A stretch of DNA of 63,975 nt, filler included. It is 9 parts of 9 records of this genome, joined end to end, with 100 filler letters (N's around TTAATTAATTAA, not from the genome) between each part and the next. Parts side by side here need not be neighbours in the genome. Positions count along the whole stretch, not along the records: positions 9,737 to 21,842 come from SRR7504441_2705; 8 more parts are not named here. One strand, 5' to 3'. This document shows positions 9,637 through 56,040 of this stretch, piece by piece; positions within the stretch are counted from its first letter, which is position 1, and each line of letters opens with the position of its first letter. The notes beneath the pieces are model-generated. The model made no database searches. It worked only from the letters and a program-made list of their open reading frames with translations, and had not been told where the DNA came from. The position numbers and the translations under genes are program-made.

Positions 9637-9736
9637 NNNNNNNNNNNNNNNNNNNNNNNNNNNNNNNNNNNNNNNNNNNNTTAATTAATTAANNNNNNNN
9701 NNNNNNNNNNNNNNNNNNNNNNNNNNNNNNNNNNNN
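9637..9736. other. Artificial contig linker
   Basis: 44 N + TTAATTAATTAA (stops in all six frames) + 44 N. Confidence 0.98.
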
Positions 9737-9737
9737 C

Positions 9738-12538
9738 ATGCCCGCCGTGCTGGCCATGGCGGCGCTGGAGGAACACCGGCGGCTGCGGCCAGAGGGGGCC
9801 GCTGGCGGGGGGGTGTTTGAGTGCCCAGCCTGTGGCGAGCGGTCCCCGGAGGATCTGGACAGCCGTGGGCTCCTGGAGTGGATCGTGAATCACTACCACG
9901 CGCACATGCTCGAGCCATTCCTGGCCGATGGGGAGCTGCACGAGGAGGAGGCAAATAGCAGTTACATGATCTTCCAGACCGGCAAAGGAGCGTGCTACAG
10001 CATCTCGCCCTCGGTGGGTGCTCGGATTAGGGGGCTAGGGGCTGATGGCTGCCCGCTGTCAGATGCTGGGAGCTTACTATCACCAGTCCTGCGACCGGTT
10101 CCTGCATTTGCGCTCGATGCGGAACCGGTCAGGGGACGCAAAACACCAGTGGCAATACTTCCAGCAGCTGGCTAGTGCGTGGCTGATGATTGTGTACAAG
10201 ACTGACCGGGCAGCTTGCAGGCATTGCCACGCTGAAGAGCACTATCCTCGAGAAGGGTTTTGTGTGGGAGGACCAGATTGTTGCCTCGCTGGAGGGGACA
10301 GGGCTGCCTCGCCAGTGGTGGCTGCGGACCACAGACACCACGCTGGTCCAGCGCCGAGTGCGAGACATGGAGAAGAGATCTCGGGAGATTGCTGACTGCA
10401 AGTGCGAGGAAAGCACTAAGGCAGCCCGAGGAGTGCACATGAAGCATAAAGATGTGACAATAGCTCACAGCCAATGATCTGACCTGTGTTGCAGACCTGC
10501 ACCGCCCGGCAGCAGCTCATGCACCAATCTAAGCTTATCCTCACGAGTGCAGCAGCAGGAGTTGACGTCATTTACCAGCCCACGTTCAAGGTCAAGCACG
10601 CTCGTCTCTCTATTGGTGACACGGAGCTGGCAGGTACCCTCGAGCTTTTTAGAAGGACAGCTCGATCGCACGGTGATCAGCCTCAGTAATTTTTCACCCG
10701 ACTTCCTATTTGTCGAGACCGCTCCAGATGGGATGCGCGAGGCACGCCTCGCACTTGCGGACCATGACTCTGGTGTCAGATCATCATCATTGATGCAAAG
10801 GCGTCTCCCAAAGTAAAGCTGTCACATAGAGTGCAGGTTGCGTACTACGCAATGGTCCTGGACGAGATCATTCAGAGGGATGTCAGACTCCGTGGCAAAC
10901 TGAGGGTCCACCGGAATGGTGGGATATGGTGCCCAGGGATGGAGGTCCCTCAGATGATCCCGTTGGAATTCACTACGATCACAAGCGTCGGCAAGTATAC
11001 GCCTGGGGCCTGCAAGTTGTGGGTGAGCAGCCAGCAACGTACACAGGTTGTGTCCAGCACGAGGATATTGCAGATTGCCCTAATTCAGACTGCAACGCTT
11101 GCTTTACCTGCATGCACATTAGCTTCGTGGAGCGTTTGTATGACGAGCTCCAGGCTGCGCATGAACATCCACAGGACCGTAGATTGGTCATTTATGCTTA
11201 TGATAGAAATGAGCTGAACAAAGCAATCATGATGCTGGTAGACCTCATCGCAGGTCCTCTGCCCTTTGGGTTACTCGCCAACATTTCTCTTGCCCAGGTG
11301 AAGATACAGATCCTCGTCACCAACGCGCACAGGACAAAGCAAAGAAGTGTCTATCAACTTTATTTCTCGACCCAAAGGAGCTGGATTCTGTGGTAACTTT
11401 GCCACAAGTTGGAACAGAGTCTCACTGGTTGTTGCATGGCAGGAGCAGCCCGGCATGGAGCTGAGTGACACCAGTGAGCAGTATATGCCGAGGCTTGTTT
11501 GTGTGAGCCAGGCCATTCAGCATCTGTGTGCTCTCCCTGTGGAATTCTTTGTGACGCTGGAGACAAGTCTGAGGCACCTTTGTCCGGACAGCCAACCAGC
11601 AGAATTAGCCTCTCAGGTGACAGAGGATATCATCTTCATGAGCTGGAAATACTGCTTGGTTGCTGGCCCTGCTCGAGTCAAAACTTTGCTCGGGACAAGG
11701 TTGCAGTTGGTGAGCTCAGTGTTGACCTCGGTCAGACAACTGACCACACCTCAACAGCTTCCTAACAAAGCTCCTAAACTAGAAATCCGCAAGCCAGCCT
11801 TTATTGGATGTGGACATCTGAACAAGCTCAATTTTCTGACCGAATTTGAGACAGTCACCGCCTATTGTCAGCAACGACTGATGAGAGCCAGCCCCTCAAA
11901 CCTTCGTGTGGATGGTGGAAAATTGCATGTGCTTCGGGCTTCAGAACAGCCCCAGCCAATTATGCAGGACCTAGACACCGAGAGCATTTCGATGACACCA
12001 GCACAGAATGGTGCTTTTGATCAGATAGCACAGCGACGACTGCAAATTGTGTGGGGGCCTCCAGGGTCAGGAAAGACATACTTTTCGGCAGCTACGATCC
12101 TCAGATTCATGCAAGCAGCAGCAGCACGGGAAACGCAATTTAGAGTTGCTGTCACAGCCACAACGCACACTGCTGTGGACAATTTGCTTCGTCAGCTTGG
12201 GCGGCTGATAGCAGCTGATGGTCCAGCCTGCTTTGTGGCAAAGGTTGGCCGGAAGCCCAGGCCGGAAGTAGGTCAGCATGTGCACGTGCCAAGAGACTAT
12301 TGGCCCGGCCGGCATGATGCATGCACTTGGCAGTCTCGGTATCAACCACATTGACGACAGTGCAGATAGCCAGGCGACGACGCTTGGGCCAGCAGCTGAT
12401 ATGCAGAACTCGTCGGCGGCTGCACCTCCAGAAGAGGGGCGTGAGTCATCGCCCGCTTCCAAACCAAAGCGAAAGTTACCTGCATGTTTAGCCAGAAATG
12501 GCAACAACTCCAACTCGCCCAAAAGCCGCCGTATGTAA
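9738..12538 (+). CDS. RecB-family (PD-(D/E)xK) nuclease fused to a truncated UPF1/DNA2-like SF1 helicase; intron-containing, possibly decaying
   Basis: Spliced ISPS|MLGAYYHQSCDRFL, EKGFVWED, IYQPTF, FSPDFL...IIIIDAKASPKVKLSHRVQVAYY (PD..DxK..QxxxY), Walker A WGPPGSGKT and motif Ia TATTHTAVDNL. No Walker B or later helicase motifs are visible. Confidence 0.75.
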
Positions 12539-12637
12539 AGCCAGCTGTTGCTGCACTACTACGTATGCTGCAATGAACATTATCTATTAATTATTTATGG
12601 CCACGAATGGTGGTAAGCTCTAGCCTAAAATTCGTCA

Positions 12638-13146
12638 TCACGCCCTTAGTTGTTCGCCCCAAAGCCGCCAGGGATCCATCTGCCCATCAAGGTGCCTATC
12701 GGCGCTGTTCATGGTTCCAATGATCTTGAAGTTGGGCAGTAGACTGAAGGGCTCATTGGGCTGGTGCCTGAGATACACACTCAATGGTTTGTCCCCGCCT
12801 CTGCCCTCCAGCAGATAGAAGAGCTCTCCAAATACCAGAGGGGCACTTGCTCGATTCATCTCGTCCATGATGAGCACGTACTGCTTTCGGGAATCTTCTT
12901 CTGCTTCCTTGGCCAGTGCCACTACCGGGCCGTCTATGGGTTGCAGCAGTTGCCCTTGGGCTGCAAACTGTGCACATGCTGTGGCAACAGCCCGCATGAG
13001 ATCTGATTTTAGACTGTTTTCACCCATGGGTTTTGGTAGCTTTGAGACTGCATCATTTATTTCCGTGTCAGAATCCTGGATAGTTTTGATCAGAGTGTGA
13101 ACCCCCGGAGCTGATCTGCACTTGGGCGATCCGATGCTTTGGGGCG
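12638..13146 (-). pseudogene. mcrB: McrB-like AAA+ GTPase fragment
   Basis: DGPVVALAKEA...YVLIMDEMNRA...FGELFYLLE...PNFKIIGTMNSADR (Walker B plus the McrB NxxD signature). Walker A and LRRRF are absent. Confidence 0.8.
12655..13146. repeat. Perfect 11-bp inverted repeat pair bounding the McrB fragment
   Basis: CGCCCCAAAGC at 12655-12665 and GCTTTGGGGCG at 13136-13146. Confidence 0.9.
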
Positions 13147-14120
13147 CCTGCGGGGGGGACAAGAAGTATATTGTACGCGGTGGCACCGAGCTCCGCGACT
13201 CTCGCTCCGGAGAGTTCTCGTGGCTCAAGCGCCAACTCTTGGCAGACATTAACGGCTCATCTCAGCTGGGGAGGATGCAACTTGAGCGAAATGCTGATGA
13301 TGGTACGTGTACCATAAATCCCCGAAGCTATGTGGTGAACAAGACCTTGGGAGACCGAGGCAACATCCTGGTGGTCAAACCTAAAAAACAAAGAAAAAGG
13401 CCCAGAGAAGGCGATGATGAGCCCATCTTATCTCTTGGGATTGTGCAGCTGATGGCGATCTGCAAGCAGCTCTCTGAGACCGGCAGCTCACCAGCTGATA
13501 GGCTGAAGCTTAGCAAACTCGGATTGGGAGACCCGCTACCCGTTGAAGCTATTGCCGGTTGGTTCCTGAGAGAAGTGAAGCTCTTAACTAGGAGAGGCTT
13601 GCTGAAGCAATGGCGCTGTAGCAAAGCAAAAGGACAGTTCATGAGAGGAAACTTTAACTTGACGCGTCAATTCAATTCAAACCCCGAGGGGATCTTGACT
13701 GGCTACCTGAACCCAATTCACTATGACAGCATTGAGTACACCGTGGAGACGGAGGTCAACTGTCGACTGCTGGCAGCACTCAATGTGCAAATCCTCACAT
13801 ATTGCAATTTTGCGGGGGTGAAAAATGGATTGCTTGTCTATGCTGCAGGTGTGGAGAAGGTAGAACAGCCAGCTGTATATTACTCGCAGGGTTCTGAGAA
13901 GTCCCTTGTTGTCTTCACTTTCTGTGACAATCCTGCTGGATTCAACAAAGATGATTTTGTTGATTTTGAGAAGCGTATTCAAAAGCTGGCTGAACTGATC
14001 CAGACAATGGCAACATACAATCTGCAGGAAAGGTGTATCAGAAAGACTGATTTCATTAGAGATGGTCTTGATTTGAAACTCGTTGCGCCAGTTGGCATCA
14101 ATGAAAAGCAGACGAAGTAG
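13122..14120 (+). pseudogene. mcrC: McrC-like protein apparently lacking its PD-(D/E)xK core
   Basis: SYVV...ILVVKPK, RRGLLKQW, MRGNFNLTRQ and EYTVETEVNCRLLAAL, followed directly by the C-terminal QILTY...GLLVY motif. Confidence 0.7.
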
Positions 14121-14644
14121 CTTCAGGTTTTTGTCCCATGCGCACATCCGGTGACATCCCATGCTGTGGCACGGAATACTGCTTCAGTATTTCTAGACAG
14201 TCGCTGTGCCCATTGGCCTCTGCGAAATCCGCTGGTGTCTTATTAAACTTATTTTTATCTCTGAGGTTGGCTTTAAAATGCTTGACTGTTTTGTTCTGAT
14301 GCTCCTGCCTCGAGATCTCGCCAAGCTGCACAGGGCATCAAGGTTGTCTCTGACCAGCTGTTGTTAGGCCATATGCTTTCGATGAAATCTTTGACATGGT
14401 CTGTGTTTCCACCATCACCACTCGCAGCCCACCTGTTGCTATCTACCGCTTGCAAGCCTTGCAGCACGCTTGCGTATAAGCAGTGCCCTTCCCCGCAGTT
14501 GGCAAGTGTGTTGGCACCCACCTTCTCAAACAACTCCTTGTTAATGATGCCATCCTCTCCCTTCAAAGCTTCATCGAGCTCTCTGATTTGACCTCTATCG
14601 AGCTCATTGATATCTACAAGCTGCCAGCGGAATTTGCCATCTGG
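14088..14644. repeat. Imperfect 10-bp inverted repeat pair (9/10) bounding the OTU/ankyrin segment
   Basis: CCAGTTGGCA at 14088-14097 and TGCCATCTGG at 14635-14644. Confidence 0.7.
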
Positions 14645-14656
14645 ATTGAAAATCAT
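14098..14656 (-). pseudogene. Fragments: OTU-like Cys motif followed, in another frame, by a single ankyrin repeat
   Basis: NCGEGHCLYASVLQGL resembles the OTU DGxCL box. KNKFNKTPADFAEANGHSDCLEILK is an ankyrin repeat. Confidence 0.5.
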
Positions 14657-15237
14657 TATTATCGTCAGAAAAAACTAAATGGAATTGGACGGACCATCGG
14701 ATAAGAGACGTAATCGTTGAGAACTGGAAGGAAATACTACACGTTACAAAAGCAACGCACTTAGTAACGCTCCATGATGCAATCACAAAAAAACTGGATA
14801 AGGAGAACACTTATTACAATCTGATTGACATACAATCTGTTTCACTCAAGGCAAGTGACATTAGCAACTTCTTGAAGAAGAGTAAAGGCATTGACTTCGC
14901 GAGTAACCATGTCCAACGGTATTTAATTGCCGAAAATTACACAGAATCTGGTTCATTCATAAGTAGAGATCAGGCTATGAAAAACAATATGAAAAAGAAA
15001 CAGAAAAAGAGATATGAGAATCCGATCATCCCCATCCCCATAGAAAAGAACAAAAAGTACGACCCCAGCAAGCAACTTTCTTTGAAGTTCAAGATAGAAT
15101 GGTGCATGTTTGGCGACAAGGTGACACAGGATGTTGCTGACAAGATGACAAGTGACCTTCAAAAGCAATGTTTACAATTGCAAAAAGAAAGCGGCGCCTG
15201 CGACGGCGATGACAATCATAACGTCCAATACTTATGA
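14650..15237 (+). pseudogene. AT-rich ORF fragment with no plausible start, unknown family
   Basis: The frame is open from about 14650 (KSLLSSEKTKWNW...) to the stop at 15237 and contains KKKQKKR. Confidence 0.4.
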
Positions 15238-15342
15238 TGGTATTAAAACCGTTGCATAATCCATCGATCCTTTCTTTATCGCGACGCTCGACTAGTTGCG
15301 AAACAAAAGAACCAAGGTAAAAGAAACCCACGCGACAAGCAC

Positions 15343-16529
15343 TCACACTCGGCCGTCGGCAGCACCGCCATCGCCTTCGAGCTCGATTTGCAACAATGCG
15401 GCCACCTCTGCACTATACCGTCAGGCCCGGCCACCCACCCTGAACTTACTCTGCCGGCACACTGGACAGTTGGTGGTCCGGAGCCTAAAAGTGCCAGCGC
15501 ATAGCGCACACCTGCGACGTTTGTTCAGTAACCGAGCCAGCCACGCCGCACATGCACAAGTGTCGACACGGGAGCACAACTACGTCCCTCGGTTCCTGTC
15601 CGACCCTCACGCCGGGCCGAGAGTCAACGTACCTCCATGCAGATGAGGCAGTCCAGCCCGGTGTCCCGGGCGGCCTCGCCCCTGCAGCAGGATGAATCGC
15701 AATCCCTGTCTGGCAGCGGGCACCAGGGGTGTGGGCCTTCCGGCTGCAGCCCATACAACTCCTGCAGCTCGAACACGCTCTTGCCCACCTGCGATGCACC
15801 TCTTACCCCGGCTCTCCGACCCTGCACTGACCAGCAGCAGCTGTTTCACCACTCGAGCTGACCACCTCCCGTCTTTCTCTAACTCCGCCTCAGCAAACGT
15901 GAGCTGTGCCCGCGCCACACCCTGTCCAACAGACATCATCCAACGGACACTGCCCTGCCGGACCTGGGCTCGCTCGGCCTCCTCCTGCGCCTGGACCAGG
16001 ACCACCAGCGGCCACTCCCGCGCCCCCTTGGCCTCCTCGGCCGCAAGCTCGTTCACTTCAAAGCTCAGCGTCGGCTCTAACTCCACGCTGCCCACCCGCC
16101 CCTCAGCTGACCACTGCTTACAGGCCGCACCGCTGCGCGATCCCGGGGGGCATGTCCCGCGGGCTGCCCACCACCTCCCCGTCAACCCGCGGGGTCACCT
16201 GTGCACCGCCGTCGGCCCGGGCGCGGGGGGCGAGCCCCGACCTGGTCTGGGCAGCGGGCTCGGTGCCATACAGTCACGCTCGCGGCCTCGTCCAGGTCCA
16301 CATCAAACTGCAGCCGCCCCGCCCTGCCCCCCCCTTGCGGTCAGCTCAGCGGCCAGCGGCGGGGGCGGCACTCGAGCCGCAGCGTGCTCCGGCGGAGGTT
16401 GAAAGGGTTGGAGATCCGGAAACTCTGGTTGTTCCCAGCCGGCTGCTCCGCCGCCGCCCCCGCGCCCGGGGCCTCCCCGGGTGGTGCCTCCCCAGGCGGC
16501 TGGCCTCCCTGGTTCTGGGAGTTCCCCAT
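15343..16529 (-). CDS. MGRN1: MGRN1/LOG2-family RING-HC E3 ubiquitin ligase
   Basis: MGNSQ myristoylation start, ISNPFNLRRSTLRL, VVKQLLL|VG..FELQELYG, and spliced RING CLICME|EPRDVVVLPCRHLCMCALCA...CPVCRQ. Confidence 0.85.
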
Positions 16530-16608
16530 AGATCTAGATGTTGGCGCCACGGCCAAACTGAAAGACCTGAAAATTGATATAGGCACAACGGTAGTGTAGA
16601 CCCGAGCG

Positions 16609-18909
16609 ATGTCGTACGAGCACCCGGCGCTGATGGCCATCATCCAGGCCCCGACGCCGGACCTGGCGGCGGCTGCTGCCGAGATCGAGCAGCTTCGGGC
16701 CCGTCTGGCCGAGCTGGAGGCCTCACATGCCGCCATGGCCGCCGCGGCGGGCACCCGGGTCGAGGAGCTGGCCGAGCTGCAGCGCCGGCAGCGGGCCGGC
16801 TGGCGAGAGCTGACCGATGAGCTCTGGCTGGACATTCTCGGCCGGTGCGGCATGGCCGCCTTGGTGCGCGCACACGGGGCCTCCCGCGGCCTGGCCCGGC
16901 ACGTCGCGGCCGGGCGGGCGGCCCGGGTGCTGGCGCACTGCGCCGTGCCGGAGGACTTCACGTCGTTGAGGAAGGCGATCGCAGCGGCTCCGGACGGAGG
17001 GCTGGTGGCGCTGGGACCGGGCAAATGGGACCAGCCGCTGCGGCTCTGCCGGGGCGTTACGGTCAAGGGCCGAGCTGGCGCGACGGTGGCGGGGCTGTGC
17101 GAGGGGCGCGACGGGCAGCGCGGGGAGGTCAAGGGGGTGACGCTGGAGGGCGGGGTGCGGGTGCCACCCGGAGCGACGGTGCGGCTGACCGAGTGCACGG
17201 TCCGAGGCGAAGTGCTGGTGCTCGGTGTGTGCTATTATCAGTGTTAGAGCAGTAGTGTTCGGCTGCTAGCTACTCCACGATTACTGATTGCTCCGGCCAG
17301 GTGAGCGAGCGCATCTCGAAATGACCGAGTGCCGGCTCTCTGGATCCAGCGGCTACGGGCTCTGGGTGCGCGACCAGGCCACCGCGGATGTCCGCCGATG
17401 CTCGATCTGCAACCACACTAGCTCAGGCGTGGCAGTGTCCAACGGTGACCATTACCATTCAGATGTGAATCTTATTGGCTGTTAATGCTAGGAGGGGCGC
17501 CGCGGCTGGAAGGTTGTGAGATCGCTTCCAATGGTCAGAGCGGAGTTTTTGTTTACGATGGCGGAAAGGTAACAGCATGCCGGTCCAATCAGTACAATGA
17601 TGGTGGCCAGGGCGAGTTTGTGGACTGTCGAGTGCTCAGGAACACCACGGCTGGAGTGGCGATCAGCACCGAAGGCGACCCTCTGTTCACTCGCTGTGCG
17701 GTATCCGACTCGGAATCATACGGTGTGCACGCCCTTGACAAGGTCTGTTCATCTATACCTGAACCCTTGATTAACCAATGATCAGGGGCGCGGGCGGCTG
17801 GTGGAGTGCACAATCAGCCGGAATGCACTGGCCGGGCTCGGGGTCACGCAACAGGCCGATCCGCTGCTGGAAGACTGCAAGCTGCTCGACGGCAAAGAGA
17901 ACGGTGCCTTGCCTGCTAGCATCCTTCTCAATCAGTGTTTCAGGCGTGTTTGCGTTCGAGCAAGGGGCCGGCCGGCTGGTTGGATGCGAGGTGAGGTCTC
18001 TTCTCTATGCATTCTGAAGGCTGTTGGGACCAGGTGTCGGGAAGCGCTCATGCGGGCTGCGTGCTCAGCGAGGGCTCGACAACCAAGCTCGACCGGTGCA
18101 GGTGAATGCCTTATTTGGAGATTGCTTAGTTGACTGGGCGGTGCAGCATCAGCCGCAACAAGCAGTCAGGGCTGCTGGCTTACGAGGCTGGTGGTGGCAC
18201 GCTAACTGACTGCACACTGGACAGCAACGGACAAGCGGGAGTGCAGGTGATTCCCTTTGCTCGGCCCTTGTTTGATTAGGAAGTGCAGCTACTGGAAGAG
18301 AGCGCTCCGGTCCTGCAGGCTTGCACCATCAGCGACAATCAGCAGCACGGCGTGAGTGCAGAGAGCGGAGCGCTTGGGAAGTTTGGCGATTGCACCATCC
18401 AACGGAATCCGACAGCAGTGCAGCTCAAGGACAGAGCATCCCCGGAGTTTACAGATTGTCGAGTCCTGGACAGCAAAGAGTTTGGCATCCACGTCAGCGA
18501 GCAAGCCTGCGGCAAGTTTATCCGTTGCAAGATCGAGCGTTCAGGCATGGTAGGCATTGGGGTAGCCAGCAACGCAGACCCAGAGCTCACAGCCTGCGAG
18601 GTACGCGATGGGTCGGCTGTGGGTGTGTTTGTCCACAAGCAAGGCGCCGGCCTGTTTGTTCAGTGTGAAATAAGTGGGAATGCGCTGGCTGGGGTGGAGG
18701 TGCGTGAAGGCGGAGCACCACGGATGGAGCGGTGCCAAATGACTGGGACGAGGGCGGTGTTGTCCAAGGCGCTGGGCGAGGAGCTAGGAGTGGGTGTGTT
18801 GGTATGGAAGGAGGGGGGTGGGGTGTACGAGGCGTGCAAGTGTGAGGGAAATGCGAGTGCGGAGTGGGAGATCCGCGACGAGTGCACCCCGAGCATTCTT
18901 AGTGCATAA
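16609..18909 (+). CDS. F-box plus right-handed beta-helix (PbH1) protein, FBXO10/11-like architecture
   Basis: F-box WRELTDELWLDILGR...LVRAHGASR, beta-helix entry VPEDFTSLRKAI, and many C.I..N...GV repeats across multiple introns. Confidence 0.8.
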
Positions 18910-19239
18910 ATGCTTTCTCGGAAAAAGTGTCACTGGAGTAATAATTCTTGGTATTACAGCCCCTTCACCGCCTAAATAAATAGATAATTGATTGGCTAAC
19001 ATCAGAGGATTCAAAGCTCTTGACCATTTATAAGACGTTGAATTGTTGCATAACTAACTTGTCGGTAGCATGAAGAGAATTGACGAAGCTATAAAACATT
19101 TATTCGACAACTATCAGTTGATAATCAGTTGATTAGAGTTGATGTTTTGTGGAGACGCTTGAGCAACGATGTTGCCCTACCCGGTCTACGCAGTACTCTA
19201 AGAGTACTCGAAGACCTCTGTAAATTGTTGCTCCTAGGC

Positions 19240-19900
19240 CTAGGGTGATGTCACTTCCTTCCTACGCCTCTTCCTCGTGGTCCTTGTTTGCACTGGACTC
19301 GACGATGGCCGCTCATCTGGACCTGGGGCATTGAAGAATTGTCCTAGGTAGTGCTTGATAGCATCGCCCCGGCTATCTAGAAACTCACTATTCATTGCCA
19401 TATATTCCTTCTTACAGATCGCAAGAGAACACATCCTTTCGTCTTTGGTTGACGTTATCTGTGCAAATATGGTTGCCGAGCGCTCTCCAACTTTTTTTTT
19501 GTTATAGTTTGGTTTTTGTAAATATTTCTCGAATTTGTCTTGCCAACCACTATTGCTAGCCTCCCGGTTGATCTCACCTTCGAGCAAACACAAATTGTTG
19601 ATTTTGTGTTTATTCCTGTAATCCTCTGCCTGCTGCATCTCGTAGAAGTCTGTTTTCTCTCGAGGATTTCTGGGCCAGATGTGTTCGAGCTGGAATCCAT
19701 GGTGGCCTGAACTTGTCAGGCCAGATGACTTTGCAGGGTCGATCCGCAAGGCTTTCAACACGGATTCAGCTTCATGGCCCTCCTCAGCATAGTGGGCGTC
19801 TTCCCATATCTTCAGCATATAACCAAGAGGTGCATTTGAATCCCGTGTACCTCCAGTGTTTTTATACTCGACTTCTTTGCAGTTGCAGTAACCAACAGCT
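19240..19900 (-). CDS. GmrSD/SspE-type C-terminal HNH domain (DUF1524-like); 5' structure unresolved, possibly a pseudogene
   Basis: LEHIWPRNP...KINNLCLLEGEINREASNSGWQDKFEKY matches EHIxP..NLxLL..N..sN..K..Y. No DUF262 domain is visible upstream. Confidence 0.75.
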
Positions 19901-20880
19901 GAAGTACCGAACATTCTCTTGCAGCTATGTTTGCGTGGCCTGCAGGGTCTCCCTGTGGGGTGGGGTTGAGGGGCGGGACCATTTGTTCCCGTTGAGGGCT
20001 CGAATCCTCCTGCCACCCTGATCCCGGGCAGGTACAAGTGCGAGTTGACACACCCCTGGTTCGCCGGCGCTTTGGAGGGCTGAGGACATCTCCGGTGTGG
20101 CCGCAGTCTGATTGGATCGGTCGAGTGCCTCCGCCACGGCAATCTGGCTTACTGCCCTGGCGTCATCCATGCCCTGCCACCAATTTAACGTGAGATGGCG
20201 AAGCATGAGGGCCATCGGGTTACCGGCGCAGCTGAGGAGCGGGTCTGCCGGGCCTGCTTGCCAGCCCACTAGTAATGGAAGGAGCTTAGTATCTTCAGGT
20301 CAGCTTCTTCGTATCTCAATCCCTGCCACCCGAGCACGCATATCAGCGCGGCAGGCAGAGCTGGACAAGCAGCAGGATGGGCGGCCCGGGTGAGTAGAAG
20401 CAGGATTGGAGCCCCGCTGCAGGGATACAGGCACAGACTCCTGAGCCAGTTCTGCCCGAGTCCGAGGTCCCCTTTAGGCCGGCCACCAATGCCGCCCGGC
20501 CAGGGCGGAAGACTTCCACCTGGAGTGGACGGGGAGTGGAACTGTCTCGGTGTACACCGAGACCAGGACGGCGAGGGTGGGTGGGTCGGGCGGCAGATGG
20601 GGGAGGGGGGGGTAGTGGGTTTGGTTTGAAGTCACCGGGGAGCTTGGTGTCGCCCGCGATGGCGAGATGCGGCGTGATGACAGCTGGCCGTTTCCAACAG
20701 TTGGCGAGTCACTGTTGACGCACTAGATTCGATAGATCTATAATATCAATATTGATATGCTAGTCGATTACGTAGAACGGATTGGTGAATGCATGTCAAA
20801 TACATTATGTTCTACTTGCTCATGCAATGTCAATCACGCATCGACAATTGTTAATTGACACAATTCAAGTGAATTCAACA

Positions 20881-21842
20881 TCACGGCCCGGTGCAATTCT
20901 TCTTGCTAAACGCCAGGTCCCACAAGATCCTCACCGCATCTGCCGCCAGCACAGTCGGGTCTGTCAGCCCCCGGTGGATCGCGTCCCTCGCCTGCCTCCC
21001 TTCAGCCCCCCTCCCCCACACCCCACACCTGGGCCCTGGCCTTTTGAGAGCACATCGACTTCTCCCACAGCCCCAGGAACCGGCCTCCGCTCAGCTTGTT
21101 GCTCTTCTGCAACAGCTCCACCAGCAAAACCTGGCCCCTCCTCTTACCCGATATCGCCGCCTGCTGCCGGCACCCCGCGGTTGGTGGCCTTGTCCATGTC
21201 TGGGATGAGCCCGGGTCGATCCTTGTCTGTGAGCATACGATACGGGAGCAGATTCTGCAGCTGCGTGGTCATCGAGTAGTTCACGTTGAACCGAGTCGGC
21301 CCCAAGAACTGGACCAGGTTAGACCAGGCCCCGCCGAACTCGGCCTCCTGCTTGGACAGCCCAGCCAGCCCCGCCGCACACCGCTCGGTCGCCTCGAGTG
21401 TCGCAGTGTGCCCGGCCCAGTACCGGCGCATCGTCTCAGACATCAACGGACTAGCAGGGTCGGGCAGGTCGCCGGCCGTGCAGCTGTGCCCGGTCTGCTG
21501 GCCGTAACGGAAGAACTCGTGCCAGTGCTGGACCGCAGTCCAATTGGCGCAGGCCGACCCGTCGGCGCAGAACCGCTCGTCCTTTTGGCGTTGCTGGAGC
21601 TCCACCCGAGGCACCGCCCCGGCCGCGGCGGCCCCGAGGTAGGGCAGCACGGTGAAGAAGTAGTTGGCGCAAGCCCACCAGCAGCCCGGGACCATGCTTG
21701 TGTTGGCCGGGGCGGCGGTGGCATTGATGCACAGCCGGCCGGTGTACTCTTGCCAGCCGTGCTGGAGCGGCAGGCCCCAGACCGGGTTGCCGTAGTGGCC
21801 CGTGCTGTTCCAGAGGCAGTGCGGGCTCCCGTCCAGCAGCCG
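20881..21842 (-). CDS. LEG1: LEG1-family protein, 5' partial
   Basis: Motifs NPVWGLPLQHGWQEYTGRL, WWACANYFFTVLPYLGAA, YWAGH, EFGGAW, QNLLPYRML and LWEKSMC. Two introns near the 3' end. Confidence 0.85.
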
Positions 21843-21942
21843 NNNNNNNNNNNNNNNNNNNNNNNNNNNNNNNNNNNNNNNNNNNNTTAATTAATTAANN
21901 NNNNNNNNNNNNNNNNNNNNNNNNNNNNNNNNNNNNNNNNNN
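21843..21942. other. Artificial contig linker
   Basis: N44-TTAATTAATTAA-N44. Confidence 0.98.
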
Positions 21943-25200: not shown

Positions 25201-28200
25201 GTCAAGTCTACGAATACCTCTCATTGCTCACGCTTTGAGCTACTGGATCATCTTTTTCGCCACTTCGAGAATGCTGTTACAAATGTCACTGTCGCAGACC
25301 GAGAAAGGGTCACACAGGAGGCAGAACGCTGTCTTAATATTCTGCAGAGATTCGTCTCTCGGTACAGACACCAATCGAAATACCGCACACACCAAGGAAG
25401 TAGCTACGGAACTTTGATGGCTCTCGAGTTCCGGGCTGAGGCGGGAAACACGCGGCTTCCCATGCAGCAGGTGGCCGATATAGAGCAAATACCAGATCAG
25501 CTCAAAGAACCTACGAAACTAGATGGGATGCACACGCATACGTGCGAGCATGAGTTAATTGATGCTGTTACGAACAAACTCAGTGAAAAGATGCTATCCT
25601 GTGATAAATATCAAGTGGTTGTCGATGGCAAGCTACTGCGACGATCTTACTGTACACTTGAGGAGATTGGCATCACGGATGGGGCCATTGTTGTTTTGAC
25701 CCATTCATCGAATCAGACTCCGATCGAAGAAACATTCTGGGAAGCCTCTGGTTACCAGGCAAAGTCCCAAAAGCACCAATTAGAACAGGGAACATTCTGC
25801 CCTGGAGATGACTTAGTAGCAGATCCTGTCAAATGGCACACCATGATGGAGCTGCTGGAGATTTCTTGTAAGCAAAGAAACGCCTCCAACACCGAGGCAG
25901 TATGGCAGCTGCTGCTAAGTTGTCCAACCTGTCAGGTGGTGAGAGATCAGGTTAAGCGTCTACAAATTCAATGGGATGCCTCGTTCCTATACCTCGTTTA
26001 CTCCTTACAAGTTGCGCACAGTATTGTTGCACCAGCTGATCCGAGTCGTTCGGAAGTCGATGTGCAGTGGTGTGAGTCATTTGTTGCCACTGGCCAATTT
26101 GCCAAGCTTTGTGATTTTGTGATACACAATCTCGAGTCAACTCTAGCTGTTCATGACCCAATGATTGCAGTGTTTGCCTTGCCTACCATAATGCACCTCT
26201 TGAAGTTCTTTGTCTGTGCAATAGACGAGAACATTCCACAGCCTTTATCGCAGGCCTGGAGTCGAAGCACAATCGAAAGCATACAAATTACGGTACTAGA
26301 CGGCCCAGAGGCATTGATAGCCACAATATCAAACTTGTGCTCTACTGCGATGTTTGAGAATGTGGGCAAAGAGCGTTCTGAACAGTGCCAGAGCAAAGAG
26401 ACACAACAATTGGAATCAGAGCCCAAAGACACGTCTCTGCAGCTGATGCCCCAGACAATAGTAGCTGCCATTGAAACTGTCCTCAGCATCATCAGGGCAC
26501 ACCCCCATTTACAGGATGAGTTTCTGGCAAATCAGATCAGCTTTCTGCCTCAACTCATGTTTGGTCATTCCAGTCAGCAGGTGCGCACCACGGCTATGCA
26601 GACATTGGTTGCTGTTTCAGAGTGCTCAGTGCACGCTTGGAAGAAGGTGGTCAAGACTGTTGTTACGATGCTCTTTGGAATACCTCGACAAAGGTATGCA
26701 GTCTGCGATGAAGGCTTCGAGCTCATCGAAAGACTCCATCTCACACCAGTTACAATCGAAGGTGATTAGAATCTAAGCAAAATATGCAGACGCATAAGAT
26801 CCACGGTGTACAGGTGATGAGCTGGACGCTGCTCGAGGCGCGCTGCTTGAACAAGGATTGAACACACTTGGTATACTGATGGAATCAAAGGAGCAGGAAA
26901 GTGTCACAACAGAGCTACTCGGGACGATGTTGCTTCTTGGAAAGATGATAAAAAATAATCCCTGCTGCTTGGACCTGTTGCCTGATCTTCAAACAAGTGC
27001 CCAAGTGATTCGAACTGTCTTCTCAAAATACATCTTGCCGATTGACACTGTTTGCTCGAGTAGTATGCGAGTCTGTGCACCAGAAGCAGGCTGCAATCTT
27101 AGATCCGCGGCTGTGCAACTGGTTTATGCTCTGGTTCGGCATTCCAAAAATCAGGCTGAAAGAGACTTTATCATGCAGGCATTGGAGAGCTTTACTTTGG
27201 GCACACCCTTACCTTGTCACGAGGATGGTAGCCTTTCAGGAGCCATTGATTGGAGTTACAGCCCAGATACAGATGGGACAAGCTCCTTTAAGCGGCGCAA
27301 CAGCACCTTGAAAGTTGGGTTAGCTAACAGAGGTTCTACATGCTACATGAATGCCGTCATTCAGCAGTTATTCAATTCGACTACTTGGAGGGACAAGCTG
27401 TTATCAGCAAGATCTTCAGACGTATCAGAATCCTCAACTACAAGTAGTAAAGCCAATCCAGCTGAGGTCATGTACCAACTGCAGAGGTGTTTCCATTATC
27501 TCCGTGACGGCGAGGCTGGCTGCTTTGACACGGAACCGTTAGTTGCTGCCTGCGAAGAGCATCTCCCAATGACATACGGGGTCCGAGCCCACAACGATGC
27601 CAGCGAATTTATTTCGCAGCTCACAGGTCAACATAGATGCCCCTTTTGTAAACATCTGTCTTTTACTGTGTGATGAATCTCATCGTTTTTGTATAGATCT
27701 GCTGGACGAGCAATTGAAAGGGACCGCTATTGCCAAGGCACTCTCAGATAGCATCACTGTGGAGGCTGCAAAGCGTAAAGTGTGTTGCGTCTGTGGAGCG
27801 GTATCTTTGGGAAGGGTGGAGAAGGAAAGATGTCTTCAAGTGGACTGTGAAAGTGGCACCACCCTCTTCCATTCATTGAAACAGGCTCTTGACTTCTACA
27901 CCGCCTCATTTTCAATGGACGGAGAGAACCGTGTGTTTTGTGAGGTGCTTTCCTTGGCATTCATTTCCCTCTATTCCCTCCCAGTTGAGTCCTATCTATC
28001 TATCTATCTATCTATCGTTAGATTAGCATAATCTGATCATATCTAATTTGGAGCCAGGGGTGCAACGAGTTGACGGATACAACGCTCACGCCAACCATGC
28101 AAAAGCTTCCAGACTTGCTCTGTATCAATTTGAAGAGATTCAAAGTTGACTTTCAGACCATGCAGCCAGTCAAATTGAATCATCGTATCGAGTTTCCTGA

Positions 28201-30410
28201 AACTCTTGACATGTGGAGATATACTGAGGCGGGGGCTACGGCCAAGGAACTGGGTTCCGAGTGTTTATCAGACAATAGCATGCTCTTTAAGCTTCAAGGC
28301 GCTGTAGTACACTCCGGAAATTCAAATTATGGCCATTACACATCTCTGGCTAAGGATGCAGACGGAAGATGGCACTCATTCGATGACAGACATGTTGAAC
28401 CCTTTTCTACCAAAGAGGGATTTGAGCAGAGTTGTTTCGGTGGCACTCCTGTTGGCCAGTTCGAAAGTGCAGAGGAGAGGAGCAAGAATGCGTTCATTCT
28501 CTTCTACACTCGGTCCGAAAGCCCAAAATATGATGCCTGCGAAAGGCTCTCTGACTGTCACACAAGCGAGGAAGTTCAGATGAAGAATACAGCCTTAAAA
28601 AAGCAGCAGATGCTCTACCAACCAGCAATAGCACAATTAGCCTTGGAGCTGAGCTTGGGCAGTGGAAATGAAGCCGTAACAGGAGAGGATCCAAGCACTT
28701 CAATCACCCTAGAGCAAGTACGTCTTCTCGTCACGGTCTTTTTGAAAGTAGTACTACTCTCCCTTCCGCCTGCGGACATCAAGCACTGGACTCAAGTTAT
28801 TGGCACCCATATGAAGGCCAGTCCTGAAGGAGCCGCTTGGTTTGTAGAATATTTGAGCACTACGGTCGAGGACCGTGCCGACTGGCTGAGCTTGTTGCTT
28901 CTTGATCCAGGCGTTCTGAGCTTCCAGTCGCAAGCATTCATAGAAATCGTCTCTGTGGCACTAGAATGCCTCACTGCTTCAAGCACTGAAGGTGAGAACA
29001 CAGTTTTACTGTTCATTGCTGTACTGAAGGACATGCTGGCGAGCGTGGCAAAGAAATCAGCTGCAATCGAAAATTATTCGAGACTGTGGGATGCAATGTG
29101 CAATCTGCCCAAGCTTCGAGCGCTTTTGGCTCACTCAGATGTTGGGCTTCTGTTGCTTCATTTATATACAGGAGGCATGGCACCTGATATGGCTGAGCTT
29201 CCTGCTCCAGACGGCCGGCCCGATTTTACATGCCTCATTATGGCACTGCATGCAATGGTGCTGGAACACGACCAGCGCAGTGAAGAGCCACTCTGGCCGA
29301 ACGAAGCGGTCAAGAAGACATTGCGACGGAAGCTTAGCGCTGCAAGGAGCAACGAGCGAGTCGAACAGCGCGACAGTCTACTTGAAATGGTCGGTGGAGC
29401 GCTTCCGAAACTGGATTTATTTCAGTACGCTCTCCAGGTGCTCCCTCCAAATGTTTTGGTTGCTTGTAGCCGAGCTTAATGAGGGCTCATAGTGCTATGT
29501 GCTCATCCTGAGGGATAATTTTCAGGTCCGTGGTGTGGGGATCTACACGAATGGGAACTACTCCGAGAATTCAAATGGCCAGAGAATTTTTGTTGAAAGG
29601 TATGGCGGGATCATTGACGGCACATACAAGTGTATCTCTGATTCGCCCAACCTCACAATGTATTTGATCTTCCGCCCCGTTCCCAACCGGAATGGTCAGC
29701 TTTGGTTTGCTGTGGTCCGGGCCAAGCCCGCCAGTACATCGACTGTCTTGGCGTCCAATAGGTGGTATATTGTATCATTTGGATTGGGCTGGAGCTACAA
29801 CTCACACCAAAGCATTGTGAGTACGCTGCAGCAAGTTCTCAAGAAGGACTGCTCACAGGCAAATTGTGAGAAGAAGCTGGATCAGGTGTTTGAGTACGAG
29901 TTCTCTGCTGACGGATACCACCTACCTGAGGTATTGTACCAAAGCCAAGAGCTGCCCGAGGACGAGTGTGAACTACCACCGGAGGATGGGTGGGAGATGT
30001 GGCCTTTTCTTCAGGACATGCAGAGGTTCAGGCACTGCGAGCTTGGAGACTCGCCATCCGTAAGAGCAGTGCCAGCACATCAAGTCATTCCTACTCCTGA
30101 AGAAGATCATGCCAAGACTTATTCCAGCCCGCCAGTGCCATGCTGTGTGCATGAGAAAAATCAGAGCTACATCGCACGTAATGGAGTGCTGGATTGTTGT
30201 TTTTGTCGTGCATTAGGCAAGCGCTACACTGAGGCTTGGGCACGAGAGGCCAAGTTTGATCAGTATGGGGGAGGGATGCAAGTCTGGCTGAATTGTTCAG
30301 CCTGCGGGATGGACTCATATGGAGACGCTGGAATCCCAGAACGCTTATCTGATCAAGAGAGGGCGGCACTCAAGGATGTCAATTGGATTTTCTTTGATCA
30401 ATCTGAGTAG
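22244..30410 (+). CDS. Large ubiquitin-specific protease (USP9/24/34-like)
   Basis: Cys box GLANRGSTCYMNAVIQQL, HNDASEF, INLKRF, His box VVHSGNSNYGHYTS and WHSFDD, plus an internal UBL-like segment (VVDGKLL...TLEEIGITDG). Six GT-AG introns join the listed ORFs. Confidence 0.9.
27992..28016 (+). repeat. (CTAT)6 microsatellite inside USP intron 27945-28057
   Basis: Directly visible in the sequence. Confidence 0.9.
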
Positions 30411-32013: not shown

Positions 32014-32113
32014 NNNNNNNNNNNNNNNNNNNNNNNNNNNNNNNNNNNNNNNNNNNNTTAATTAATTAANNNNNNNNNNNNNNNNNNNNNNNNNNNNNNN
32101 NNNNNNNNNNNNN
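32014..32113. other. Artificial contig linker
   Basis: N44-TTAATTAATTAA-N44. Confidence 0.98.
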
Positions 32114-36062: not shown

Positions 36063-36162
36063 NNNNNNNNNNNNNNNNNNNNNNNNNNNNNNNNNNNNNN
36101 NNNNNNTTAATTAATTAANNNNNNNNNNNNNNNNNNNNNNNNNNNNNNNNNNNNNNNNNNNN
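36063..36162. other. Artificial contig linker
   Basis: N44-TTAATTAATTAA-N44. Confidence 0.98.
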
Positions 36163-41457: not shown

Positions 41458-41557
41458 NNNNNNNNNNNNNNNNNNNNNNNNNNNNNNNNNNNNNNNNNNN
41501 NTTAATTAATTAANNNNNNNNNNNNNNNNNNNNNNNNNNNNNNNNNNNNNNNNNNNN
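41458..41557. other. Artificial contig linker
   Basis: N44-TTAATTAATTAA-N44. Confidence 0.98.
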
Positions 41558-46097: not shown

Positions 46098-46197
46098 NNN
46101 NNNNNNNNNNNNNNNNNNNNNNNNNNNNNNNNNNNNNNNNNTTAATTAATTAANNNNNNNNNNNNNNNNNNNNNNNNNNNNNNNNNNNNNNNNNNNN
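46098..46197. other. Artificial contig linker
   Basis: N44-TTAATTAATTAA-N44. Confidence 0.98.
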
Positions 46198-52282: not shown

Positions 52283-52382
52283 NNNNNNNNNNNNNNNNNN
52301 NNNNNNNNNNNNNNNNNNNNNNNNNNTTAATTAATTAANNNNNNNNNNNNNNNNNNNNNNNNNNNNNNNNNNNNNNNNNNNN
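52283..52382. other. Artificial contig linker
   Basis: N44-TTAATTAATTAA-N44. Confidence 0.98.
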
Positions 52383-55940: not shown

Positions 55941-56040
55941 NNNNNNNNNNNNNNNNNNNNNNNNNNNNNNNNNNNNNNNNNNNNTTAATTAATTAANNNN
56001 NNNNNNNNNNNNNNNNNNNNNNNNNNNNNNNNNNNNNNNN
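55941..56040. other. Artificial contig linker
   Basis: N44-TTAATTAATTAA-N44. Confidence 0.98.

What the first reader, a model, noticed from the sequence alone, without database searches (positions are those of the whole stretch)
12638..15237. Scrambled McrB-McrC-OTU locus: two inverted-repeat-bounded flips restore in-frame fusions
Seen: four fragments alternate (-,+,-,+) and begin or end mid-domain. A perfect 11-bp inverted repeat (12655-12665 / 13136-13146) reads L-W-G in both the McrB and McrC frames, so flipping the segment gives ...MNSADRHLDGQMDPWR-LWG-ACGGDKK...McrC. A second 9/10 inverted repeat (14088-14097 / 14635-14644) reads P-x-G in both the McrC and OTU-like frames, so flipping gives McrC...VAP(V/D)GKFRWQL...GHCLY. 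Inference: the ancestor was one McrB-McrC-OTU/ankyrin polyprotein, a eukaryote-style fusion, rearranged by microhomology-mediated inversion. The two repeat pairs differ in sequence, which argues against a single site-specific invertase. A pointer-like programmed unscrambling or an amplification chimera remains possible. The outer junctions still contain stops, so the reconstruction is incomplete.
Basis: partly seen in the sequence, partly recalled or inferred. Interest (0 to 1): 0.8.

Follow-up and report, generated by a model that had tools for sequence, protein, structure and literature searches.

The report
Truncated McrB/McrC remnants, not scrambled polyprotein
A eukaryote-like contig carries shortened leftovers of bacterial-type restriction genes (McrB, McrC) lying head to head, and flipping segments on paper joins reading frames but restores no missing protein part, so the proposed scrambled fusion gene is not supported.

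Summary
The ORFs, both inverted repeats and the in-frame joins exist. McrB and McrC are confirmed. The '-' ORF 12638-13261 holds one internal McrB block, positions 285-369 of my 503-position McrB profile (E 4e-22). The '+' ORF 13101-14120 is McrC-like. OTU is not supported and ankyrin is sub-threshold.

The McrC-like ORF has a full-length N-terminal lead and its own C-terminal block. It lacks the central nuclease core through an in-frame internal deletion. It therefore does not end mid-domain, and the second flip adds no homology.

The second repeat is at chance level. The first, a perfect 11-mer at both ORF ends, is nominally unusual (5 of 5000 shuffles, post hoc). It could mark a real inversion of the McrB block relative to the usual mcrB->mcrC order. 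Even so, the un-flipped state would still be a truncated block.

The missing parts are nowhere in the window, and no collinear fused homologue was found.

Best reading: deleted remnants of prokaryote-type defence genes, with a GmrSD fragment nearby. An assembly or amplification chimera cannot be excluded, because no reads were obtainable.

The parts
10223..12276 (+). N-terminal two thirds of a RecB-family nuclease / SF1 helicase gene. It runs as far as helicase motifs Q, I and Ia; motifs II-VI are absent.
   Evidence: Pfam AAA_11 E 2e-8 and weak Cas4. It is collinear with residues 134-1300 of the 1808-aa relative P0015, and nothing matches residues beyond 1300. No motif II, V or VI pattern occurs in the six frames of the window.
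12638..13261 (-). McrB-like ORF (207 aa, stop to stop). Only 12689-12955 (residues 103-191: Walker B through the TMNxADR stretch) is McrB. There is no Walker A and no arginine-finger or C-terminal part. The first Met codon is at 13027-13025.
   Evidence: profile positions 285-369 of 503, E 4.2e-22. Of 284 plasmid records with a match, 0 cover 80% of the ORF, and the 12 listed cover 39-42%. The coding signal runs 12680-13129.
12655..12665 (.). Left arm of IR1 (perfect 11-mer), 17 nt before the stop of the McrB-like ORF.
   Evidence: (I15).
13136..13146 (.). Right arm of IR1. It overlaps the last base of the first ATG (13134-13136) of the McrC-like ORF.
12515..12530 (.). Direct near-copy (15 of 16) of the sequence around the left arm of IR1, 139 nt away, in a stretch with no coding signal. 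Unexplained.
   Evidence: (family D6). No similarity extends beyond the core.
13101..14120 (+). McrC-like ORF (339 aa). It has a 65-residue lead, an N-domain (13296-13781), then directly the C-terminal block (13788-14009). The central roughly 150 profile positions, which hold the PD...(D/E)xK nuclease core, are missing through an in-frame deletion.
   Evidence: The coding signal is positive along the whole ORF. Chance of 339 open codons: 8e-8.
14088..14097 (.). Left arm of IR2 (9 of 10), 7 codons before the McrC-like stop and 80 nt after the end of McrC homology.
14635..14644 (.). Right arm of IR2, 4 codons after the Met (14656-14654) of the '-' ORF.
14273..14674 (-). Its length is within chance.
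   Evidence: No family or solved relative. No McrC similarity. About 0.8 ORFs of this length are expected by chance. The codon signal is positive, but so is that of the antisense frame. The fold model is unusable, pLDDT 40.
14098..14337 (-). 79-aa ORF with one sub-threshold ankyrin-like repeat.
   Evidence: Ank_2 E 0.031, below cut-off. Its length is within chance.
14650..15237 (+). 195-aa ORF of unknown family with no early Met.
   Evidence: The codon signal is positive.
19240..20148 (-). Context, same contig: ORF carrying only the C-terminal (HNH-type) domain of a GmrSD type IV restriction enzyme.
   Evidence: Pfam GmrSD_C E 1.6e-13.

Best explanation
The locus is a cluster of shortened derivatives of prokaryote-type, modification-dependent restriction and defence genes. 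It sits in a eukaryote-like contig (window 9737-21842) of uneven G+C. The cluster holds a RecB-nuclease/SF1-helicase gene cut off after motif Ia, one internal block of McrB, and a McrC-like ORF that keeps both ends but has lost its nuclease core by an in-frame deletion. Two or three ORFs of unknown family follow, and a GmrSD C-domain fragment lies 5 kb further on. The pieces are separate ORFs that were truncated or internally deleted. They are not permuted parts of one polyprotein.

Shown: the identities of the pieces, the extent of each homology block, the absence of the missing parts from the window, and the lack of any gain in homology from the flips.

Inferred: the pieces descend from a co-directional mcrB->mcrC pair, and the McrB block was later inverted. 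I put about 35-40% on this having happened by recombination or template switching between the 11-nt repeat. Even then, the pre-inversion state would have been a truncated McrB block abutting McrC, not an intact fusion protein.

Neither ORF can work as a canonical GTPase-nuclease, because Walker A is absent from one and the PD-(D/E)xK core from the other. The long intact ORFs mean either recent inactivation or retention as non-catalytic proteins. I cannot tell which.
For: McrB block only: profile positions 285-369 of 503, E 4.2e-22. The next best of 1182 window ORFs is a generic P-loop at E 0.16. The same extent is seen with NCBIfam, solved structures and plasmids.

McrC-like ORF: it aligns with the stand-alone relative P0008 from residue 66 (P0008 residue 67), so the lead is full length. 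My profile matches two blocks, positions 101-173 at residues 149-226 and positions 325-389 at residues 230-303.

No McrC nuclease core, McrB Walker A or tail, or helicase second half was found anywhere in the window. The flips add no score. IR2 is at chance level and the regional count of inverted repeats is at chance level. The codon signal supports each ORF in its own frame and stops near the ORF ends. The helicase, McrB-like, McrC-like and 14650-15237 ORFs are far longer than chance. A GmrSD_C fragment lies in the same contig. The eukaryote-like context rests on UCH, SPRY/EF-hand and beta-helix genes.
Against: IR1 sits within 60 nt of both ORF ends (5 of 5000 shuffles). Its 11-mer also has a third, direct near-copy 139 nt away. 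Six matches with <=1 mismatch occur in the window against 2.1 expected, and three of them lie within 630 nt. This local pattern is not explained by simple decay and fits a rearrangement junction, real or artefactual.

Long uninterrupted ORFs that stop just at the junctions are also what an assembly or amplification chimera would give.

No close relative, no second copy and no reads were available to confirm that the arrangement exists in a genome.

My profiles are narrow: mostly actinobacterial rows, effective number about 1.4-1.5. Very divergent parts could therefore be missed.
Confidence: 0.55

Rival explanations
1. Assembly or whole-genome-amplification chimera. The true genome holds ordinary, longer genes. 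The contig strings together inverted pieces with intervening deletions, joined at short complementary stretches.
For: The pattern here (inverted pieces, missing intervening sequence, an 11-nt complementarity at a junction) is what is described for multiple-displacement amplification. [quoted passage not shown] The window is a string of short contigs joined by linkers, so the assembly is fragmented. ORFs are intact right up to the junctions.
Against: Four or more junctions within 3 kb would all have to win the consensus. The sequence upstream of the McrB block within the same ORF is not McrB-like: it has no Walker A and no conserved segment before profile position 285. The McrC deletion is in frame. 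Both facts point to real divergence in the genome. No large hairpin-type inverted duplication exists in the contig. Other multi-part genes in the window are collinear on one strand: UCH and the helicase.
Confidence: 0.2
2. A retained, non-catalytic McrB-like/McrC-like gene pair. After transfer of an operon into a eukaryote, an inversion placed the two genes head to head around a shared promoter. Both then lost their enzymatic cores but were kept as separate proteins.
For: There are Met codons 107 nt apart on opposite strands (13027-13025 and 13134-13136). Both ORFs are far longer than chance and have a codon signal like the window's other long ORFs. The McrC deletion is in frame. A stand-alone McrC-like protein exists elsewhere in two forms that differ only at the C-terminus (P0003 and P0008).
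Against: There is no expression data and no orthologue with which to test for selection. The Walker A loss and the absence of the McrB C-terminal third leave less than half of an AAA+ module. The neighbouring helicase and GmrSD genes are also fragments, which fits decay better.
Confidence: 0.15
3. One reading: one ancestral McrB-McrC-OTU/ankyrin polyprotein, scrambled by two inversions between short inverted repeats.
For: Both flips are in frame and give a 611-aa ORF. IR1's placement is nominally unusual. Flipping the McrB block restores the usual mcrB-before-mcrC order.
Against: No fused homologue was found. OTU is unsupported. IR2 is at chance level. The McrC-like ORF already ends with its own C-terminal block, and the '-' ORF has its own Met. 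The flips restore no domain. The arms were chosen to share a codon register, so the in-frame result follows from the choice.
Confidence: 0.05
4. Programmed, pointer-guided DNA unscrambling or a reversible inversion switch.
For: IR1 has the formal geometry of a pointer pair around an inverted segment.
Against: Only one credible repeat pair exists. Unscrambling completes no domain. The missing segments are not in the locus. The outer junction has a stop and no Met until residue 51 of the joined ORF. No recombinase was seen in the contig. There are no reads to show two configurations.
Confidence: 0.03

Closest known systems
McrBC type IV (modification-dependent) restriction system of bacteria and archaea. 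Solved McrB chains are 6hz4, 6ut3 and 6ut6. Example operons here are L002 (Priestia plasmid) and L003 (Nocardioides plasmid).
   Same: The '-' ORF carries the McrB Walker B to TMNxADR block at 44-53% identity to bacterial McrB. The '+' ORF carries the McrC N-domain and C-terminal block. The two lie next to each other, with McrB on the upstream side.
   Different: The two are on opposite strands instead of a co-directional, overlapping pair. There is no McrB N-terminal DNA-reading domain, Walker A, arginine-finger block or C-terminal third. There is no McrC PD-(D/E)xK core. The context is eukaryote-like.
Stand-alone McrC-like protein P0003/P0008 (319/413 aa, unnamed, from assembled public runs).
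   Same: It is the only credible relative of the '+' ORF among 1.84 billion representatives: 25% identity over 203 aa, with the same length of N-terminal lead.
   Different: P0008 keeps the central region that the window ORF has lost (Pfam McrBC profile positions 1-233). Its genomic context could not be seen.
GmrSD-family type IV restriction homologues reported in a few eukaryotes.
   Same: Prokaryote-type, modification-dependent restriction domains occur in eukaryotic genomes. PMC4619093 (passages read) counts 3 eukaryotes among 613 sequenced organisms with homologues and lists Thalassiosira oceanica. A GmrSD_C ORF lies in this contig.
   Different: Only the C-terminal domain is present here. 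It is a neighbour of the finding, not part of it.
Chimeras of multiple-displacement amplification (PMC1855051).
   Same: Inverted segments, intervening deletions and short complementarity at junctions (abstract).
   Different: Such chimeras normally show one junction per read and rarely reach a consensus. Here there are at least four strand changes, and the ORFs show real divergence. This could not be tested without reads.
Scrambled micronuclear genes of spirotrich ciliates, with pointer repeats (recalled, not searched).
   Same: A short repeat in inverted orientation flanks an inverted coding segment.
   Different: Here unscrambling completes nothing, the other segments are missing, and the G+C of 44-72% is unlike those genomes as I recall them.

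Membership tests
McrB (AAA+ GTPase of McrBC) | Walker A P-loop | tested here: not met
   The profile match starts at position 285; the P-loop lies at about positions 225-250. The only matches to that part are generic P-loops of the helicase ORF (E 0.16) and of a '-' strand ORF at 55176-55361 (E 0.81).
McrB (AAA+ GTPase of McrBC) | Walker B with the DE-x-NR...FGE stretch, and the TMN-x-ADR stretch | tested here: met
   Residues 103-191 align to profile positions 285-369, E 4.2e-22. Also.
McrB (AAA+ GTPase of McrBC) | Arginine-rich block after TMN-x-ADR, plus the C-terminal helical part | tested here: not met
   No ORF in the window matches profile positions 370-503. Short by-eye candidates downstream on the '-' strand reach only 5 of 300 and 10 of 300 shuffles among 9 comparisons.
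McrB (AAA+ GTPase of McrBC) | Gene directly upstream of mcrC on the same strand | tested here: not met
   Upstream, but on the opposite strand. Bacterial loci: both annotated plasmid loci and 15 of 17 genome loci have the co-directional ORF.
McrC (Pfam PF10117) | N-terminal domain that contacts the McrB ring | tested here: met
   Pfam E 0.0017, below the cut-off. P0008 E 6e-14. My profile positions 101-173 match. The role of this domain is taken from PMC7641849 (passage read).
McrC (Pfam PF10117) | PD-(D/E)xK nuclease core | tested here: not met
   Profile positions 174-324 are skipped between residues 226 and 230. There is no match to this part anywhere in the window. The '-' ORF 14273-14674 does not supply it.
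McrC (Pfam PF10117) | C-terminal block of the nuclease domain | tested here: met
   Profile positions 325-389 of 401 align at residues 230-303.
OTU cysteine protease (Pfam PF02338) | Family profile match, or papain-like fold with a Cys/His pair | tested here: not met
   No Pfam match at E<=10. No solved relative. In the atlas, OTU appears only at rank 23, score 0.86. The fold model was too poor to search, pLDDT 40.
Ankyrin repeat | Pfam Ank match above the cut-off | tested here: inconclusive
   Ank_2 E 0.031, 15.3 bits against a 27.3-bit cut-off.
Pointer-guided scrambled gene | Joining at the repeats completes a split domain, and all segments are present in the locus | tested here: not met
   The flips add no homology. 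The missing parts are absent from the window.
Pointer-guided scrambled gene | Both configurations exist in DNA or RNA | not testable with these tools
   No sequencing run was listed.
Amplification or assembly chimera | Junctions supported only by chimeric reads | not testable with these tools
   No run was listed and no whole genome is held.

The most novel reading that the evidence does not exclude
The 11-nt repeat pair is a working pointer. In some cells or life stages the 492-bp segment 12655-13146 is inverted, which joins the McrB block in frame to the McrC-like ORF as a 498-aa product. That would make this a eukaryotic, DNA-level switch built from a domesticated restriction system.
Probability: 0.03. 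Interest if true: 0.85.

Novelty: new member of a known kind. Interest (0 to 1): 0.3.

Why it matters
If the arrangement is real, the contig shows several prokaryote-type, modification-dependent restriction genes (McrB, McrC, GmrSD, a nuclease-helicase) sitting together in a eukaryote-like genome, in shortened forms. That bears on how transferred defence operons are taken apart, or reused, after transfer.

The claim that would have been striking is a scrambled polyprotein restored by repeat-bounded flips. It does not hold: the flips are in frame by the way the repeats were chosen, and they restore nothing.

The practical lesson is that joining ORFs at short shared repeats must be checked against profile coordinates of the families, not against reading frames alone.

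Tried and rejected
1. Read mapping: no sequencing run was listed for window:10000-17500. No RNA holder was listed.
2. Whole genome: none is held.
3. Close relatives of the locus: none in viral contigs for the McrC-like, helicase, McrB-like and 14650-15237 ORFs. None in metagenome contigs for the McrC-like ORF. A helicase alignment gave one distant locus, L001, at 32% identity, which I did not examine further.
4. Second copies inside the window: none by blastn. The tblastx rows are short, low-scoring matches that I judged to be noise.
5. Structure prediction: both models were unusable, with mean pLDDT 31.9 for the McrC-like ORF on a 3-row alignment and 40.0 for the 14273-14674 ORF. No fold search was run.
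6. A profile of the McrC-like alignment against solved structures gave 0 matches at E<=10.
7. My by-eye idea that the '-' ORF 14273-14674 is the missing McrC nuclease core was rejected. There was no profile hit at any threshold. Local alignment scores were reached by 107, 78, 151, 97 and 15 of 200 shuffles against five McrC proteins.
8. My by-eye idea that the McrB ORF continues downstream through a GT..AG intron or between the direct repeats: only weak matches (5 of 300 and 10 of 300 shuffles among 9 comparisons), no profile support and no coding signal there.
9. Hits P0001 and P0002 of the exhaustive search are repeat proteins that match one short stretch of the query 7 and 11 times. I treated both as score inflation by repeats. 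The PAN-like resemblance at 13149-13226 is a lead only.
10. The helicase P-loop as the missing McrB Walker A was rejected. The ORF has SF1 motifs Q, I and Ia and aligns collinearly with nuclease-helicase relatives.
11. The direct repeat at 13143-13170 / 15193-15220 (71% over 28 nt) is of a kind I estimate to occur about twice by chance in the region (own arithmetic, no call).
12. Earlier findings of this scan: three look-ups returned nothing.
13. Literature: two searches for McrBC or GmrSD in eukaryotes listed no paper on a eukaryotic McrB-McrC fusion or scrambled McrBC. Only listings were seen, apart from the passages cited elsewhere. Supplementary files were not consulted.
Full report
CONTEXT

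The 63,975-base window is not one molecule. Eight spacers of 44 N, then TTAATTAATTAA, then 44 N join separate contigs. The finding lies in the contig at window 9737-21842.

The window looks eukaryotic. It has long ORFs with ubiquitin hydrolase, SPRY/EF-hand and class II aldolase domains, and a multi-exon right-handed beta-helix gene in the same contig. G+C swings between 0.44 and 0.72 per kilobase. No Rfam family was found, no whole genome is held and no sequencing run was listed.

WHAT IS IN THE SEQUENCE

The stop-to-stop ORFs are as described:
- 12638-13261 on the '-' strand, 207 aa.
- 13101-14120 on the '+' strand, 339 aa.
- 14273-14674 (133 aa) and 14098-14337 (79 aa) on the '-' strand.
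- 14650-15237 on the '+' strand, 195 aa.
- Upstream, 11302-12354 on the '+' strand, 350 aa.

IR1 is a perfect 11-mer at 12655-12665 / 13136-13146 (pair I15). IR2 matches 9 of 10 at 14088-14097 / 14635-14644 (read). Done in a script, flipping 12655-13146 gives a 498-aa ORF (12624-14117), flipping 14088-14644 gives 452 aa, and both flips together give 611 aa.

IDENTITIES OF THE PIECES

The '-' ORF is McrB-like, but only in residues 103-191 (window 12689-12955). The supporting matches are:
- Pfam AAA_5, E 1.7e-4.
- The NCBIfam McrB equivalog model, positions 253-339 of 459, E 1.7e-10.
- Solved McrB chains 6ut3, 6hz4 and 6ut6, E about 1e-9, over the same residues.
- 284 plasmid records, none covering 80% of the ORF, with the 12 listed covering 39-42%.
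- My own McrB profile: positions 285-369 of 503, E 4.2e-22.

That profile was built from 20 rows: L002, L003, 15 genome loci and P0004-P0006. L015, L019 and L020 were left out because the upstream ORF was short or absent, and L001 because it is unrelated.

The block runs from just before Walker B to the TMN-x-ADR stretch. No ORF among the 1182 of at least 30 aa in the window matches the Walker A region (other than generic P-loops at E 0.16 and 0.81), the arginine-rich block or the C-terminal third.

The '+' ORF is McrC-like. Pfam McrBC scores only E 0.0017, below its cut-off, and a word-based search found nothing. The exhaustive search of 1.84 billion representatives gave 3 hits. Two of them are repeat proteins hit 7 and 11 times by one short stretch of the query, which I discount. 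The third is P0003, 319 aa. Its 413-aa cluster mate P0008 matches Pfam McrBC at E 1.3e-11 and aligns with the window ORF at 25% identity over 203 aa, E 6e-14. Query residue 66 aligns with P0008 residue 67. The window ORF therefore has a lead of the same length as a stand-alone relative.

My McrC profile used 19 rows: L002, L003 and 17 genome loci. L020 was left out, and the rows for L018 and L019 are cut short at in-frame stops. It finds the '+' ORF as the only significant ORF of the 1182 (E 1.1e-7; the next best is E 7.9). The match comes in two blocks: profile positions 101-173 at residues 149-226, and positions 325-389 of 401 at residues 230-303.

The ORF thus jumps over about 150 profile positions, which hold the PD...(D/E)xK catalytic core, and then carries the family's own C-terminal block. 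McrC homology ends at window 14009, which is 36 codons before the stop and 80 nt before the left arm of IR2. The McrC-like ORF has natural ends and an in-frame internal deletion. It does not end mid-domain.

'OTU' is not supported:
- No Pfam match even at E<=10.
- No solved relative.
- An OTU cluster appears in the atlas only at rank 23, score 0.86, with the family on 13% of members.
- The fold model is unusable, pLDDT 40.

The ankyrin match is below the cut-off. At 133 and 79 aa these two ORFs are not longer than chance allows, whereas the helicase, McrB-like, McrC-like and 14650-15237 ORFs are.

I tested whether the 14273-14674 ORF might instead be the missing McrC core, which it resembled by eye. 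It has no profile hit at any threshold, and its local alignment scores are reached by 15 to 151 of 200 shuffles. The idea is rejected.

The upstream '+' gene is a RecB-family nuclease / SF1 helicase. It shows Pfam AAA_11 and a weak Cas4 match, and its relatives are named 'bifunctional RecB family nuclease/DEAD/DEAH box helicase'. It is collinear with residues 134-1300 of the 1808-aa relative P0015 over window 10223-12207. Nothing matches the last 500 residues, and no helicase motif II, V or VI pattern occurs in any frame of the window. It too is cut short.

ARE THE REPEATS MORE THAN CHANCE?

Regionally, no. The 2600-base region has 2 perfect 11-nt inverted pairs against 0.92 +/- 1.25 in 100 dinucleotide shuffles (24 of 100 reach 2). 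It has 117 ten-mers with at most one mismatch against 132 +/- 19 in 20 shuffles. The repeat finder lists 29 inverted pairs in 3.8 kb, including other perfect 10-12-mers.

IR2 is nothing. Its longest perfect core is 6 nt, reached in 1376 of 3000 shuffles of the two 60-nt ORF-end windows.

IR1 is different. An 11-mer shared between the last 60 nt of the '-' ORF and the first 60 nt of the '+' ORF is reached in 5 of 5000 shuffles, and in 5 of 2000 for 100-nt windows. The same word has a third, direct near-copy at 12515-12530 (15 of 16). In the whole window the 11-mer with at most one mismatch occurs 6 times against 2.1 expected, and three of the six lie within 630 nt. Similarity does not extend beyond the core.

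The test was chosen after the fact, and the scan looked at many ORF pairs. I therefore treat IR1 as suggestive of a rearrangement junction, not as proof.

DO THE FLIPS RESTORE ANYTHING?

No. The arms were picked because they read the same tripeptide in both frames, so the in-frame joins follow from the choice. After the flips the homology blocks are the same and the scores are slightly lower: McrB 72.0 against 74.7 bits, McrC 24.9 or 26.1 against 27.4 bits.

No domain is split across a junction and then completed. The joined ORF has a stop just upstream and no Met until residue 51. The '-' ORF 14273-14674 has its own Met 4 codons before the right arm of IR2. The '+' ORF has an ATG at 13134-13136, touching the right arm of IR1.

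No fused relative was seen. The three longer McrB relatives carry DNA-reading domains plus AAA, but not the McrBC domain. The only McrC-like relative stands alone.

WHAT REMAINS OF THE INVERSION IDEA

In both annotated plasmid loci, mcrB is directly followed by mcrC on the same strand and overlaps it by a few bases. In 15 of 17 genome loci, an ORF of more than 300 aa ends within about 100 nt of the McrC start on the same strand. These ORFs built the profile that hits the window's McrB block at E 4e-22.

Here the McrB block is on the upstream side of McrC but on the opposite strand. If both descend from one operon, one inversion occurred, and IR1 is where its arms would be. I put 35-40% on that. 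Even so, the state before the inversion would have been an 85-residue McrB block running into McrC, which is a deletion product and not an ancestral polyprotein.

ARTEFACT?

Inverted pieces with intervening deletions, joined at 2-21 complementary nucleotides, are the signature of multiple-displacement amplification chimeras (PMC1855051, abstract). The assembly is fragmented, and the ORFs are intact up to the junctions.

Four points argue against an artefact:
- At least four strand changes in 3 kb would all have to win the consensus.
- The 100 residues upstream of the McrB block in the same ORF are not McrB-like.
- The McrC deletion is in frame.
- Other multi-part genes in the window are collinear.

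I leave 20% on an artefact. Only reads can settle it.

BROADER PICTURE

A codon table made from the window's long ORFs scores each of the five ORFs positive in its own frame. The stretch 12500-12770 has no coding signal.

The same contig carries a further fragment of a type IV restriction enzyme, a GmrSD C-terminal domain at 19240-20148 (E 1.6e-13). GmrSD homologues have been reported in a few eukaryotes, 3 of 613 sequenced organisms, with Thalassiosira oceanica listed (PMC4619093, passages).

The contig therefore reads as a eukaryote-like stretch that holds several shortened prokaryote-type defence genes. Whether they are recent wrecks or retained non-catalytic proteins is open.

VERDICT

The scrambled McrB-McrC-OTU polyprotein is not supported. 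Interest is modest.

Noticed in passing
window 9637-9736, 21843-21942, 32014-32113, 36063-36162, 41458-41557, 46098-46197, 52283-52382, 55941-56040: Eight spacers of 44 N + TTAATTAATTAA + 44 N. The window is a chain of separate contigs, so nothing may be inferred across these points.
   Followed up: yes
window 19240-20148 (-): A 302-aa ORF with only the C-terminal (HNH-type) domain of a GmrSD type IV restriction enzyme (Pfam GmrSD_C E 1.6e-13). It lies in a lower-G+C patch of the same contig and ends in a basic tail. No N-terminal DUF262 part was looked for beyond the ORF list.
   Followed up: partly
window 12515-12530 and 12654-12669: A 16-nt direct repeat (15 of 16), 139 nt apart, overlaps the left arm of IR1. 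Both copies sit in the same codon register on either strand. The stretch between them has no coding signal. Unexplained.
   Followed up: partly
window 16600-18909 (+): A G+C-rich gene in several ORF pieces with right-handed beta-helix repeats (Pfam Beta_helix E 4.6e-28 and 1.3e-7). It is probably a host gene with introns next to the lower-G+C island.
   Followed up: partly
window 26798-27673 and 28037-29479 (+): A ubiquitin C-terminal hydrolase domain is split over two ORFs on the same strand (profile positions 1-99 and 141-254). This fits an intron or a gap.
   Followed up: no
window 59408-63790 (+): An uninterrupted 1460-aa ORF with three SPRY domains and an EF-hand pair.
   Followed up: no
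window 13149-13226 (+): The first 45 residues of the McrC-like ORF resemble the second half of a repeat unit of P0001, a 697-aa protein with PAN-domain matches (about 45% identity over 23-32 aa, seen in 8 repeats). This is probably score inflation by repeats, but the resemblance starts 3 nt after the right arm of IR1.
   Followed up: partly
window 55176-55361 (-): A P-loop stretch that generic AAA/McrB queries hit weakly (E 0.012-0.8). It is unrelated to the finding and its family was not tested.
   Followed up: no
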